Made by a program: the position numbers and the translations under genes
Source of the DNA: Naegleria gruberi
Lineage: Eukaryota
Direction: 5' to 3' (one strand)
Length of the DNA: 64,000 nt
Assembly: GCA_000004985.1 (NCBI GenBank)
Contig: GG738873.1
The notes under the pieces: model-generated
Seen by the model: the letters and a program-made list of their open reading frames with translations, nothing else
The model's database searches: none
Told to the model about the DNA's origin: nothing
Part shown: piece by piece, positions 35,442 to 39,705 of the stretch
Numbering within the stretch: position 1 is the first letter of the stretch
Layout: each line of letters begins with the position of its first letter

Positions 35442-36941
35442 ATGAACAATTTGAAAATTGAAATTTGTAAAAAAAATATGAAACCAGTCGAAACTGGGAA
35501 TGTAATATTTGCTGATGATGTAATCTATGAAATCCTATCTTTCCTAAATAATGAATGGAAGTTTATTTTATTGAACGGTTGTTTAGTTTCTAAACAATGG
35601 TTTACAATGATTAAGAAATATTCGAAACTAGAAGTTGAATTTAATCATCGGATCAATACTGAACAATTATTTTCAAGTGACTTTTTAAATTCAATTGCAA
35701 AATTGAGAATTGATAAATATTGTGGAATTTTATATCCGAGAAAATTCAATGAAAATCTTGGAATGATGACTCAGTTGACTGAATTGAATCTTTCAGCATG
35801 GAAATTAAAAATGGAACATGTTGAAGCTATTTCAAAATTATATAATTTGAAAAAATTAATCATTAATAATCGTTTCAATAATTTTGATACAAAGGAAGCA
35901 AAATTAATTGGGAAATTAGAAAATTTAACATTTTTGGAAATTTCTAGAATTGGTGATATGGGACTGAAATATATTTCAGAATTGAAAAATTTGAGAATTC
36001 TAAATATACATGATCCATGTTTTACCTTTACAAGGTATGGACTTGAATCCATCAGTGAAATGCCCAAATTGACTTGTTTGAAAGTTAGAGATTTGAAAAT
36101 TTGTAACGAAGGTGTCAATTGGATTAGTCAATCAACTCAATTGACTGATTTAGATTTTACAACCTGTACTTTAGATCAAGGATTAGAATCATTATGTGAA
36201 ATGAAGCGATTAACAAGTCTATGGTTGCCAAGTTGCCCAAAATATGCAAACAAAGTTGAATTAATTGGCCAATTGACACAATTGACTAGTCTCAACATTT
36301 GTGCTAGAGGAATTAATGATCAAGATGGAGTACATATCAAAGAATTGACGCAATTGACTGAACTTGATATTAGTCTGAATCAAATTGTTTTTGAAACTAT
36401 CGAATCTATTAGCCAATTGACCAATTTAATTATTCTAAACATGTCCTATTGTAATATTGGAGATGATGGAGCATGCCTTATTGGAGAATTGAGTCAATTA
36501 AGAGAGTTGAAAGTTTTAAAAAATTTAATTACTGATGCAGGAGTTATTTCAATCAGTCAATTAAAACATCTTATCAAGTTGGATATTAGTAATAATGAAA
36601 TTAGTAAGACTGGAGCTGAATCAATTAGTGGATTGAGAAATTTAACTTACCTTAATATTGGATATAATTTAATTGGAGATGAGGGATGCGATTTCATTTG
36701 TGATCTGTCTCTATTAAGATCTCTTCATGCTGATAAAACTGGTATCAGCTCAGAAGGTATCAAGTCAATCAGAAATTTGAGAAAATTGACTAGTCTTTCT
36801 TTATCAAATAATAATATTTGTGATGAAGGATGCAAATTCATTAATATTAAGCAATTGAACTACCTTAATGTCAAGTCAAATCCATGTAATGCAGATTTAA
36901 GTTTCTCAAATCTTTACTCTAAAACCACATTATTTCCATAA
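35442..36941 (+). CDS. Leucine-rich-repeat protein (RNI-like LRR), possible F-box at N-terminus
   Basis: 499-aa intronless ORF. About 16 tandem ~24-aa LRRs (L..L.L..N.I.D.G...I..L..L). N-terminal VIYEILSFL...LVSKQW resembles an F-box. Confidence 0.7.
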   Translation: MNNLKIEICKKNMKPVETGNVIFADDVIYEILSFLNNEWKFILLNGCLVSKQWFTMIKKYSKLEVEFNHRINTEQLFSSDFLNSIAKLRIDKYCGILYPRKFNENLGMMTQLTELNLSAWKLKMEHVEAISKLYNLKKLIINNRFNNFDTKEAKLIGKLENLTFLEISRIGDMGLKYISELKNLRILNIHDPCFTFTRYGLESISEMPKLTCLKVRDLKICNEGVNWISQSTQLTDLDFTTCTLDQGLESLCEMKRLTSLWLPSCPKYANKVELIGQLTQLTSLNICARGINDQDGVHIKELTQLTELDISLNQIVFETIESISQLTNLIILNMSYCNIGDDGACLIGELSQLRELKVLKNLITDAGVISISQLKHLIKLDISNNEISKTGAESISGLRNLTYLNIGYNLIGDEGCDFICDLSLLRSLHADKTGISSEGIKSIRNLRKLTSLSLSNNNICDEGCKFINIKQLNYLNVKSNPCNADLSFSNLYSKTTLFP

Positions 36942-36991: not shown

Positions 36992-39436
36992 TTATTGCCT
37001 CAGAATTTCAAATTCCTCAATTTTTGCATAACTTGATGCTCTTTTGTCCTGTCTTACTGATTCTGACACTATTTCTATGTCTCTTTTCAATTCATCACTG
37101 GCATATTTAAGGGCTACTCCTTGTAACTTGACAACTGTTAACACGAATAGTCTATCATTTCTTAATGAAACATCTGCATATTCAAATGCTAGACCATTTT
37201 GTGATGCTGCAAGTAAAACTATCTCTCTATCTTTCTTGAGTGATTCAATCGCGTAACAAAGGGCTTTACCATTCTGTTTCACAGCCCCAGTTACTATTTC
37301 TCTATCTTCCCTTAATATCAAGTCAGCAAATTTTAAGGATTTTCCATTTTGTAGAACAGCTTTTAATACAATTTCTCTATCTTTCTTTAAAGATATATCA
37401 ACGTATTGTAAAATAAGTCCATTTCTTTGTAGCGCCAATAGTACAAATTCTCTATCTCTTTTGAATACATCATTTGCAAGTGAAAACTCCCGTGGATTAT
37501 ATTTGATGGTGAGTAACAAGATATTCTTATCTTTTCTGTGATATTCCTTATAGACTGTTCGTGGTAATAAATGCCCAAAAGGAATGGAGGATATCACGCC
37601 TTGATGATTATTCCCATCTTCAATTATTTCTTTTGACATGATTAATGAATCAATATTAATTGATTCATCTGCATATTCCACAGCATCCACATTTTGATTT
37701 ACAGCTACGGTAACTATTTCTCTATCTTTTCTTAATGAAGGATCAGCATATCTAAGAGCCCTTCCATCTTGTTTTACTGCCATTAATACTATTTCTCTAT
37801 CACAATTCAAAGGATATTCAATAAATTCGAGAGCTCTTCCATTTGTTGACACTGCTATTAAAGCCATGTCTTTTTGTTTCTTAAATATTTCGTTCGCATA
37901 TTTAAGAGCAGAACCATTTTGATGAATTGCCTTTCGTACTATTTCTTCTTCTCTTTTCAATGACTCATCAGCATACTTCAATGAGCATCCATTTTGTCCA
38001 ATGGCAGTTTCAACAATCTCTCTATCTTTTCTGAAACGATAAGCTGCGCTTGCTAAATGCCAGCCATTTTTTCTGACAGCTTCCAATGCAATTTCTCTAT
38101 CTTCTCTAAATGATTTATCAAGATGCCTAAAGATTGATCTACTACTACTTTTAACGGCCTCCAATACTATTTCTCTATCTTTCCTTAATTCAAAATTAAC
38201 ATATTTGATGGAATAACCAAACTATTTAACTGCTTGCAATACAATTTCTTTTTCGTTCTTGAAATCTTCTTTCGCATATTTGAGATAATATCCAAATTGT
38301 TTAACAGATTGTAAGGTTATCTCCCTATCATCTTTATCAAGTAGTTCAAGAGAGACACCAAGAGAAGCACAGATTAATTGAACATTCCTATTCTCTGCAA
38401 GAGCTTGATTGAGGTGATGAAATTGATGAGATAACATGATTGGTCCTTCAATCTGTCCATTTTCAGAGAATATTCTTTTCAAAATTTGTTGACAAGAAGG
38501 TCTATTCTCTGGATTCTCACTCAACATTTCCACAAGCAATTTAAATATAAAAATCCATCCATCTTCATCTTCCTCTAAATTACCTAACTCTATTAATTTT
38601 CGTACAGTTTCCACTTCATTAGATATTATTTCTCTTACCATAGAAGAGTATTGATCTAGATGTGTTATTCTGTTTTCATTTGTTGGAAAAAGAATAAACA
38701 GAATTAATCTAGCCAAACTCCAAATATCACTCTTGAACGATTCTCCCAATTTTGCACATTCAGGTGCAACAAAACCTGGACTACCATTAAGAGTATAACT
38801 CTCATGCATGTTGAGATCATTCGAATAATCAATGTGGTCCATTCCTTGGTTAGAAAACCGATCATCATTAGAAATGGCAATCCCAAAATCTGCCAAAACA
38901 ACATCAATAGCACATATTTTACAATCAGTATCATGAAGTGAAATAATAATATTCTCTGGTTTGATATCTCTGTGAATTATGTTTGCCTCCTCAAGTTTAC
39001 AAAGAGCATTCACAATTCTAATGAAAATTTGTAAAATTTGACATAATAAAATCCTTCCATTCTTGTTAATTTGCATATCTGTATAATTTTTCAAATCAAT
39101 TCCTCTATATTTTGATACTGTCACAACCATGTCATTAAAATTATCCACAAAATCAAATGTCAATAAACTGGCATCATGTAATTCTTCTGAAATTTTAGCA
39201 AATTTCCAATCACCAACCGGACAATCATCAAAATCATCATCTTCTCCTCGTTTAACAATTTTTACAACATATTCCTGATTGTCAATGGATAGACATTTGC
39301 AAACTACAACATTGTTTCCCTTCTTAAATATTTGAATAGGAATATATTGAATATTATTAATGAAAAATGGTTTTCCAAGCCTGGAGAGAGCCTCGTATAG
39401 ATTTTGATCATCGTTCGTACTTTGATGTTCAATCAT
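36992..39436 (-). CDS. Ser/Thr protein kinase fused to a ~13-unit tandem repeat array (DUF4116-like 'REIVLxAVxQNGxALxYA' repeats); reading frame interrupted by a single in-frame TAG at 38222..38224
   Basis: Kinase subdomains (VVKIVKRG, HRDIKPENIII, DFGIA, APE) in ORF 38222..39436. The repeat array begins at the end of that ORF and continues in the SAME frame through the TAG into ORF 36992..38164 (…IVLQAVK*FGYSIKYVNFELRKDREIVLEAVK…). The TAG occupies the Gln position of the repeat consensus (previous unit …SVKQFGYYLKYA). Confidence 0.6.
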
Positions 39437-39587
39437 TTTTTAATGAATTTATTCATAATTTTAGTGGCAGTGTTGCATATTTAAGTTGATTGTAAACCTC
39501 TAATTAAGCAACATACTGTATTGGATCAACATCATTCAGAATACCAAATATTTACTGTTCATAATTCCCAATAAGCTGAAATAAAAA

Positions 39588-39705
39588 GACTACAGCACCA
39601 CAGGTTCCCAAGTTGTCTCCAACCTCAGTACTGATGTGGCTCGACGATGCTTAACTTCTCAAATCGGACGGGATGAGGTGCATTCATCGTGATATGGCCG
39701 TAGCC
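39588..39705 (-). rRNA. 5S ribosomal RNA
   Basis: Minus-strand GGCTACGGCCATATCACGATGAATGCACCTCATCCCGTCCGATTTGAGAAGTTAAGCATCGTCGAGCCACATCAGTACTGAGGTTGGAGACAACTTGGGAACCTGTGGTGCTGTAGTC matches the 5S consensus (GCCTACGGCCATACCAC...CCCGTCCGATCT..GAAGTTAAGC...TTAGTACT...TGGGAA.CC.GGTGCTGTAGGC). The 5' and 3' ends pair as helix I. Followed by TTTTTATTT Pol III terminator. Confidence 0.85.

What the first reader, a model, noticed from the sequence alone, without database searches (positions are those of the whole stretch)
36992..39436. Protein kinase fused to a long tandem-repeat array, interrupted by one in-frame TAG exactly at a consensus Gln position
The kinase ORF and the downstream repeat ORF are in the same frame. 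The repeat periodicity (…DREIVLxAVKQNGxALKYAxxxLKxDREIV…, about 13 units, resembling the DUF4116-type repeat of protist proteins) runs uninterrupted across the stop at 38222..38224. The stop replaces the Gln of the unit (…QAVK*FGYSIKYV… versus the preceding …SVKQFGYYLKYA…), that is, CAG to TAG. This could be a sequencing error, a very recent nonsense mutation giving a truncated kinase plus an orphan repeat ORF, or programmed stop-codon readthrough. TAG is used as a genuine stop elsewhere in the window (EF-G), so a global TAG=Gln reassignment is unlikely.
Basis: seen in the sequence. Interest (0 to 1): 0.55.

Follow-up and report, generated by a model that had tools for sequence, protein, structure and literature searches.

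The report
Kinase–repeat gene broken by one stop
A Naegleria gruberi gene for a protein kinase joined to a long helical-repeat tail carries one premature TAG stop in the reference genome, most likely an ordinary recent nonsense mutation or a base-call error and not a special decoding mechanism.

Summary
On the minus strand, a 404-codon kinase ORF (39436..38225) and a 409-codon DUF4116 repeat ORF (38221..36995) share one frame. Only a TAG at 38224..38222 separates them. The 25-residue repeat register and a complete Pfam DUF4116 match both run straight across that stop.

The window is Naegleria gruberi NEG-M nuclear DNA. The kinase ORF is annotated as XP_002676313.1 (NAEGRDRAFT_68631) and ends at this TAG. 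I found no protein model for the repeat ORF.

A full-length paralogue, NAEGRDRAFT_53795 (850 aa), is collinear end to end. It is equally similar on both sides of the stop (42.2% and 41.6%), so the ancestral gene was a single ORF of about 815 codons.

- **Intron:** excluded. There is no GTAAGT-type donor or CTAAC branch site.
- **Readthrough:** no signal found. The context is AAA-UAG-UUU, and no RNA structure follows the stop.
- **TAG reassignment:** excluded. TAG ends EF-G normally.
- **Ancestral codon:** ambiguous. The repeat consensus gives Gln, but the closest paralogue has TTG (Leu).

The best reading is a single, very recent nonsense lesion, possibly one allele. A sequencing error is the main rival. 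Read data are needed to separate them. Ordinary, low interest.

The parts
38225..39436 (-). Upstream ORF, codons 1-404. Annotated N. gruberi protein XP_002676313.1 / NAEGRDRAFT_68631, with the model ending at the TAG.
   Evidence: 100% identity to P0121.
38471..39322 (-). Protein kinase domain, residues 39-322. Catalytic motifs are present: Lys in YVVKIVK (residue 59), HRDIKPEN (155), DFG (183), APE (224). The Gly-rich loop is degenerate (KKGNNVVV).
   Evidence: Pfam PF00069, E 3.4e-21, 76 bits against a cut-off of 31.7. Motif positions.
38183..38329 (-). The one DUF4116 domain (49 profile positions, residues 370-418) that the stop cuts at profile position 36.
   Evidence: The profile matches 1-49 across the stop. 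The halves alone match 1-35 and 12-48.
38222..38224 (-). In-frame TAG at codon 405, in the context GCA GTT AAA TAG TTT GGT TAT.
36995..38221 (-). Downstream same-frame ORF of 409 codons, DUF4116 repeats. The first ATG comes only 119 codons after the stop (37867). No protein model was found in the 5.8-billion-protein collection.
37655..38338 (-). First repeat array: 9 half-units of 25-26 residues, about residues 367-594. It spans the stop.
36995..37537 (-). Second repeat array: 7 half-units, residues 634-814. It follows a non-repeat spacer, about residues 595-633, that is also present in paralogues P0123 and P0033.
36992..36994 (-). TAA, the presumed original stop of the full-length gene. It lies 50 bp from the end of the convergent F-box/LRR gene (35442..36941, +).

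Best explanation
This is one nuclear gene of Naegleria gruberi NEG-M. It belongs to a small paralogous family in which an N-terminal Ser/Thr protein kinase domain is followed by a linker and two arrays of DUF4116 repeats. Those repeats are predicted to be alpha-solenoids and presumably act as a scaffold or binding module; that function is inferred, not shown.

In the reference assembly, a single base substitution has turned codon 405 into TAG. This codon sits inside the second 25-residue half-repeat. The ancestral codon was either CAG (Gln), as the repeat consensus suggests, or TTG (Leu), as in the closest paralogue.

I judge this most likely a genuine and very recent nonsense mutation. It may be present on only one allele, or it may be specific to the laboratory strain. 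The gene would then yield at most a 404-residue kinase ending in a broken repeat. The downstream 409 codons would be a still-intact relic that is not normally translated.

Shown: single-gene ancestry, the exact position of the lesion, and the absence of an intron, of a code change and of recognisable readthrough signals. Inferred: that the T or A is real and not a base-call error, and that the downstream part is untranslated.
For: **Source organism.** The kinase ORF is 100% identical to N. gruberi XP_002676313.1, a 404-aa model ending at this TAG.

**Single-gene ancestry.** Paralogue XP_002670086.1 (P0123, 850 aa) aligns collinearly from residue 24 to residue 791. Identity is 42.2% upstream of the stop and 41.6% downstream. 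Paralogue P0033 (691 aa) is also collinear across the stop. The kinase-then-DUF4116 order recurs in other eukaryotic proteins, P0043 and P0065.

**Position of the lesion.** The DUF4116 profile matches 1-49 across the stop, and the 25-residue register is unbroken.

**No intron.** There is no GTA[ACT]GT donor within 380 nt upstream of the TAG and no CTAAC-type branch site nearby. Genuine introns in the window all have both.

**The lesion is recent.** It is the only one in 814 codons. About 6.3% of random substitutions in the downstream ORF would create a stop. An untranslated downstream half therefore implies under roughly 4% neutral divergence since the event.

**Standard genetic code.** Terminating stops of ORFs of at least 120 codons in the window are TAA 43, TGA 12 and TAG 9. 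EF-G ends at a TAG just after a complete C-terminal domain.

**Gene spacing.** The downstream ORF ends 50 bp from the neighbouring convergent gene. The full-length gene therefore fills the space, and a 1.2-kb untranslated tail would be unusual in this dense genome.
Against: No read-level data, second strain, transcript or peptide could be consulted. A consensus base-call error in the Sanger assembly would look identical. Low-level or programmed readthrough cannot be excluded from sequence alone.

The downstream half is perfectly intact, and it is as conserved against the paralogue as the kinase half. That is also what continued translation would produce.

The stop falls at a position where 9 of 15 sister units have Gln. 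Gln is the residue most often inserted at UAG by near-cognate decoding in yeast (my own knowledge, Blanchet et al. 2014). A readthrough product would therefore be near wild type.
Confidence: 0.58

Rival explanations
1. Sequencing or assembly error. The true codon is CAG (Gln) or TTG (Leu), and the organism makes a normal 814-residue kinase-DUF4116 protein. The annotated 404-aa model is then an artefact of one miscalled base.
For: There is only one lesion in 814 codons, and everything downstream is intact. Identity to the paralogue is equal on both sides of the stop. A single base change restores either the repeat-consensus Gln or the paralogue's Leu. The assembly is a Sanger draft (table in PMC9928731).
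Against: Consensus substitution errors are rare in Sanger assemblies at roughly 8x coverage (my own knowledge). The local sequence, GTTAAATAGTTTGG, has only short runs of 3 bases and is not an obvious compression or homopolymer trap. No independent sequence of the locus was found to contradict the TAG.
Confidence: 0.25
2. Functional stop-codon readthrough. The UAG is leaky or programmed, so one mRNA yields a short kinase and, at lower level, the full kinase-solenoid protein. Near-cognate tRNA-Gln would restore the consensus residue.
For: The downstream ORF is intact for 409 codons and in register. The stop is at a Gln-consensus position. The codon before the stop is AAA, and A at positions -1 and -2 favours leakiness in yeast (my own knowledge).
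Against: The stop is followed by UUU GGU. That is neither the UAG-CARYYA nor the CUAG type of context. The 105 nt after the stop fold no better than shuffled sequence: -10.5 kcal/mol, z = +1.23, with 182 of 200 shuffles folding at least as well. The paralogues have sense codons at this site. I found no report of readthrough in Naegleria. A very recent mutation explains the intact ORF just as well.
Confidence: 0.07
3. Gene fission. The two ORFs are now separate functional genes, a short kinase and an independently expressed DUF4116 repeat protein.
For: DUF4116-only proteins are common in N. gruberi and elsewhere. The kinase part retains its catalytic motifs.
Against: There is no spacer at all between the ORFs. 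The first ATG downstream is 119 codons after the stop and falls in the middle of a repeat. The stop cuts a single DUF4116 domain at profile position 36 of 49. I found no protein model for the downstream ORF.
Confidence: 0.04
4. The TAG lies in a short in-frame intron that is spliced out, as happens with the in-frame TGA at 6928..6930 elsewhere in the window.
For: The genome is eukaryotic, with very short introns of 26-94 nt. One of them (6919..6951) is 33 nt, in frame, and contains a TGA. Many GT..AG pairs whose length is a multiple of 3 span the TAG.
Against: None of those pairs has a GTAAGT/GTACGT-type donor. The nearest such donor is 381 nt upstream of the TAG. No CTAAC-like branch site is near the TAG. 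The would-be intron encodes a perfectly good DUF4116 unit in register.
Confidence: 0.02

Closest known systems
N. gruberi paralogue NAEGRDRAFT_53795 (XP_002670086.1, 850 aa). More distant paralogues are NAEGRDRAFT_75119 (691 aa) and NAEGRDRAFT_62160 (475 aa).
   Same: It has the same kinase subfamily, the same linker motif (LIELGNLEEDEDGW against LIEMGDLEEDLNGW), the same two DUF4116 arrays with a spacer between them, and a similar C-terminal end. It is collinear over residues 24-791 at about 42% identity.
   Different: The paralogue is one uninterrupted ORF. It has TTG (Leu) where this gene has TAG.
Nonsense-disrupted genes (young unitary pseudogenes or segregating nonsense alleles)
   Same: It has a single premature stop in an otherwise intact member of an expanded gene family, with no further lesions.
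   Different: Whether it is fixed, heterozygous or an artefact is unknown. No loss of expression has been shown.
Programmed stop-codon readthrough (TMV-type UAG-CARYYA, UGA-CUAG in animals, structure-stimulated readthrough)
   Same: It has an in-frame UAG followed by a long conserved coding extension.
   Different: It has none of the known stimulatory contexts or structures. No conservation of the stop in relatives could be shown.
UAR=Gln genetic-code variants (ciliates, hexamitid diplomonads, some oxymonads and green algae)
   Same: It has a TAG at a position where Gln is the consensus.
   Different: TAA and TAG terminate the other genes in this window at positions where the domains are complete. 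Only this one TAG is internal.

Membership tests
Eukaryotic protein kinase superfamily (Pfam PF00069) | Profile match above the curated cut-off | tested here: met
   76.2 bits against a cut-off of 31.7, residues 39-322, profile positions 9-261 of 263.
Eukaryotic protein kinase superfamily (Pfam PF00069) | Catalytic motifs: beta3 Lys, HRD...N, DFG, APE | tested here: met
   YVVKIVK (56-62), HRDIKPEN (155-162), DFG (183), APE (224).
Eukaryotic protein kinase superfamily (Pfam PF00069) | Canonical GxGxxG glycine-rich loop | tested here: not met
   The sequence at the expected place is IFKKGNNVVVCK, with only one Gly. Activity is therefore plausible but not assured.
DUF4116 repeat family (Pfam PF13475) | Repeated profile matches above the cut-off | tested here: met
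   370.5 bits and 7 matches in the downstream ORF. A further match is cut by the stop, and a 1-49 match runs across it.
Programmed stop-codon readthrough site | Known stimulatory 3' context (CARYYA after UAG, or CUAG) | tested here: not met
   The context is UAG UUU GGU UAU.
Programmed stop-codon readthrough site | Stable RNA structure shortly after the stop | tested here: not met
   The fold is -10.5 kcal/mol against a shuffle mean of -13.8, z = +1.23.
Programmed stop-codon readthrough site | Stop codon conserved in orthologues, with protein-coding constraint downstream | not testable with these tools
   No orthologue from another strain or species was found. The paralogues have sense codons.
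Programmed stop-codon readthrough site | Extended protein or ribosome footprints observed | not testable with these tools
   No expression or proteome data were available.
TAG=Gln genetic code variant | TAG not used for termination, and frequent in-frame TAG in genes | tested here: not met
   EF-G ends at a TAG 8 residues after a complete EFG_C domain. Long ORFs in the window are otherwise free of internal TAG.
Spliceosomal intron containing the stop | GTAAGT/GTAYGT donor, CTAAC-like branch site and AG acceptor, as in the window's real introns | tested here: not met
   No donor lies within 380 nt upstream of the TAG and no branch motif is nearby.
Decaying pseudogene | Several disabling lesions or relaxed constraint | tested here: inconclusive
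   There is only one lesion. Identity to the paralogue downstream (41.6%) equals that upstream (42.2%). This fits a very young lesion, an error or continued translation.

The most novel reading that the evidence does not exclude
The UAG is a maintained leaky stop. One Naegleria mRNA would then produce both a free kinase and, by near-cognate Gln insertion, a kinase tethered to a DUF4116 alpha-solenoid. This would be a first case of regulatory stop-codon readthrough in Heterolobosea, using a context unlike the known motifs.
Probability: 0.06. Interest if true: 0.5.

Novelty: new member of a known kind. Interest (0 to 1): 0.15.

Why it matters
The main value is for annotation. NAEGRDRAFT_68631 is recorded as a 404-residue kinase, but it is the front half of a kinase-DUF4116 gene of about 815 codons. 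The 1.2-kb repeat half appears to have no gene model.

If the TAG is real, this is a very young gene truncation in an expanded signalling family of a free-living amoeba. That is routine turnover. If it is an error, the protein model should be extended. Only the unlikely readthrough reading would be of wider interest.

Tried and rejected
1. **Giant-virus or bacterial origin.** I suspected this at first from the dense ORFs and 32% GC. I rejected it because of a nuclear-type 5S rRNA gene, RasGEF, RGS and F-box-LRR genes, short spliceosomal introns and the 100% match to an N. gruberi protein.
2. **Intron across the stop.** I listed every GT..AG pair that restores a long ORF. None has the donor and branch features of real introns in the window.
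3. **Independent sequences of the locus.** Exact look-ups of the window's ORFs found no contig. A scan of JGI metagenomes with the protein, and another with a 34-nt DNA pattern around the stop, found nothing. A protein search with the kinase half returned only the NCBI model and one weak (30% identity) unrelated kinase hit. A search with the unique spacer of the downstream half returned nothing.
4. **A related strain.** An ENA metagenome (ERZ929261, run ERR1078381) holds a strain whose copy of paralogue 53795 is 98.9% identical at the protein level. Its copy of this gene is not in the protein collection.
5. **Structure prediction of the repaired protein.** I did not pursue structure further, because DUF4116 is already modelled as an alpha-solenoid in PMC8078820.
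6. **RNA editing.** C-to-U editing is known in heterolobosean mitochondria. It runs in the wrong direction and in the wrong compartment to repair a nuclear UAG, so I rejected it on general knowledge.
7. **Bacterial promoter and terminator scan.** This is not meaningful for a eukaryote.
8. **The N. gruberi genome paper (PMID 20211133).** It is not held in the library.

Full report
**1. The observation**

The feature is on the minus strand. Reading 39436..36992 in reverse complement gives:
- an ATG-initiated ORF of 404 codons;
- a TAG at 38224..38222;
- 409 further sense codons in the same frame;
- a TAA at 36994..36992.

There is no other stop or frameshift.

Pfam places a protein kinase domain at residues 39-322 (76 bits). 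A DUF4116 match at residues 370-404 breaks off at profile position 35 of 49, exactly at the stop. The downstream ORF gives seven more DUF4116 matches (370 bits, E 1.6e-113). A piece spanning the stop, with X in its place, matches the DUF4116 profile from position 1 to 49, so the stop sits inside one domain at about profile position 36.

Cut into 25-residue units, the register runs through the stop without a slip. I count 16 half-units, in arrays of nine and seven separated by a non-repeat spacer. At the stop's position in the unit, 9 of the other 15 units have Gln: 7 CAA and 2 CAG.

**2. Where the sequence comes from**

The window is nuclear DNA of a compact, AT-rich eukaryote. The evidence is:
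- a 5S rRNA gene at 39587..39705;
- F-box/LRR, RGS and RasGEF genes, and EF-G and GidA homologues;
- very short introns with GTAAGT/GTACGT donors and CTAAC-type branch sites.

The kinase ORF is 100% identical to Naegleria gruberi XP_002676313.1 (EFC43569.1, NAEGRDRAFT_68631, UniProt D2VIB8). That is a 404-residue 'predicted protein' on a 461,873-bp scaffold. The public annotation therefore ends the gene at this TAG.

I found no protein model for the downstream repeat ORF. Three candidate Met-initiated products are not in the collection. A search with its unique spacer region found nothing.

**3. One gene or two**

A full HMMER scan with the kinase and linker found three N. gruberi paralogues at E 1e-30 or better.

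The closest is XP_002670086.1 (NAEGRDRAFT_53795, 850 aa), a single uninterrupted ORF. It aligns collinearly with the joined translation from residue 24 to residue 791. The alignment runs through the kinase, a shared linker motif, the first array, the spacer and the second array. In a global alignment the identity is 42.2% (163/386) upstream of the stop and 41.6% (162/389) downstream.

A second paralogue, XP_002669925.1 (691 aa), is also collinear across the stop. The kinase-then-DUF4116 order recurs in unrelated eukaryotic proteins.

The ancestral state is therefore one gene of about 815 codons, and both halves were conserved equally for most of its history. Three further points argue against two independent genes:
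- There is no spacer between the ORFs.
- The first downstream ATG is 119 codons after the stop and falls inside a repeat.
- The downstream ORF ends only 50 bp from the convergent neighbouring gene, so the full-length gene fills the available space.

**4. Explanations tested**

*Genetic code.* Among ORFs of at least 120 codons, the terminating stops are TAA 43, TGA 12 and TAG 9. The EF-G ORF ends at a TAG eight residues after a complete EFG_C domain. No tRNA gene lies in the window. TAG=Gln reassignment is excluded.

*Intron.* This had to be checked because the genome is eukaryotic. Another same-frame ORF pair in the window (6397..6930 and 6931..8346) is split by a TGA that lies in a 33-nt in-frame intron-like element, GTACGT...TTCTAAC...AAAAG.

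Around the TAG, many GT..AG pairs with a length that is a multiple of 3 exist by chance. None has a GTA[ACT]GT donor; the nearest is 381 nt upstream. No CTAAC-like branch site is near. The segment that would be removed encodes a good DUF4116 unit in register. Rejected.

*Readthrough signals.* The context is GCA GUU AAA UAG UUU GGU UAU. That is neither UAG-CARYYA nor a CUAG type. The 105 nt from the stop fold at -10.5 kcal/mol against a shuffle mean of -13.8, z = +1.23, so they are less stable than most shuffles. A literature search found no report of readthrough in Naegleria. Nothing positive supports programmed readthrough, though sequence alone cannot exclude it.

**5. Which codon was there**

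The repeat consensus does favour Gln. However, 29 of the gene's 33 Gln codons are CAA, including the one in the preceding unit.

The aligned codon in the closest paralogue is TTG (Leu): GCT GTT AAA TTG AAT. I read this from an ENA metagenome contig of a strain 98.9% identical at the protein level. The second paralogue has Arg at this site.

CAG to TAG (a transition) and TTG to TAG (a transversion) are both single steps. Under simple mutation models, Gln codons supply 5-15% of the one-step routes to TAG in this gene and Leu supplies 17-21%.

A stop at a Gln-consensus position is mildly notable. It fits equally with a real mutation, a miscalled base or readthrough, so it does not separate them.

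**6. How old the lesion can be**

About 6.3% of all single-base substitutions in the downstream ORF would create a stop. If that half is untranslated, 409 intact codons imply fewer than roughly 46 neutral substitutions at the 5% level (0.937^46 is about 0.05). That is under about 4% divergence, before counting indels.

The lesion is therefore very recent, or not real, or the region is still read.

**7. Verdict**

The most likely reading, about 0.58, is a genuine recent nonsense substitution in the sequenced strain. It may sit on one allele of a heterozygous or polyploid laboratory clone. Heterozygosity of NEG-M comes from my own recollection of the genome paper, which I could not read.

Such a mutation would leave a 404-residue kinase with intact HRD, DFG and APE motifs and a degenerate Gly-loop, ending in a broken repeat. 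Behind it would lie an unannotated 1.2-kb relic.

The rivals are:
- a base-call error in the Sanger draft, about 0.25; the sequencing technology is taken from PMC9928731;
- functional readthrough, about 0.07;
- gene fission, about 0.04;
- an intron, about 0.02.

I could not separate the first two. No second sequence of the locus exists in the collections I could search.

**8. Comparison with the known, and novelty**

The protein belongs to the protein kinase superfamily and the DUF4116 repeat family; both Pfam tests are met. DUF4116 has no known function and has been modelled as an alpha-solenoid (PMC8078820).

The phenomenon is an ordinary premature stop in a member of an expanded gene family, which is a known kind of thing. 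It fails the testable criteria for a programmed readthrough site, for a variant genetic code and for an intron. The practical outcome is an annotation correction. Interest is low, at 0.15. The one interesting reading, a maintained leaky UAG, is not excluded but has no positive support.

Noticed in passing
window 39587..39705 (-): A complete 5S rRNA gene (Rfam RF00001, 105 bits, model positions 1-120), followed by a T-run. It lies about 150 bp upstream of the kinase ATG on the same strand, so the kinase gene's promoter must fit between a Pol III gene and its own start.
   Followed up: partly
window 6919..6951 (+): A second same-frame ORF pair (6397..6930 and 6931..8346, the latter with an RGS domain) is split by a TGA. 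The TGA lies inside a 33-nt element with a GTACGT donor, a TTCTAAC branch site and an AAAAG acceptor. This looks like a tiny in-frame intron. It shows that in-frame stops in this genome need an intron check.
   Followed up: partly
window 36995..38221 (-): I found no protein model in public collections for the 409-codon DUF4116 ORF, although its upstream half is annotated (XP_002676313.1). This looks like an annotation gap in the N. gruberi gene set.
   Followed up: yes
L001 1..3122 (ENA ERZ929261, run ERR1078381, PRJEB11402): A metagenome contig encodes a protein that differs at only 9 of 850 residues from N. gruberi NAEGRDRAFT_53795. A close relative of strain NEG-M is therefore present in that sample, and its raw reads could be used to check the TAG.
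   Followed up: partly
window 35442..36941 (+): The convergent neighbour is a 499-residue leucine-rich-repeat protein. Its N-terminus looks F-box-like by eye (VIFADDVIYEILSFLNNEWKF...), which I did not test. Its stop is only 50 bp from the stop of the kinase-repeat gene.
   Followed up: no
window 60001..64000: G+C falls from about 32% to 24% and then 17% at the right end of the window, although ORFs of 279 and 437 codons are still listed there.
   Followed up: no
P0124 (N. gruberi XP_002682207.1, 475 aa): In this paralogue's model the kinase domain stops right after the APE motif and runs directly into DUF4116 repeats. This may be a mis-predicted gene model or a real truncated variant of the same family.
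   Followed up: no
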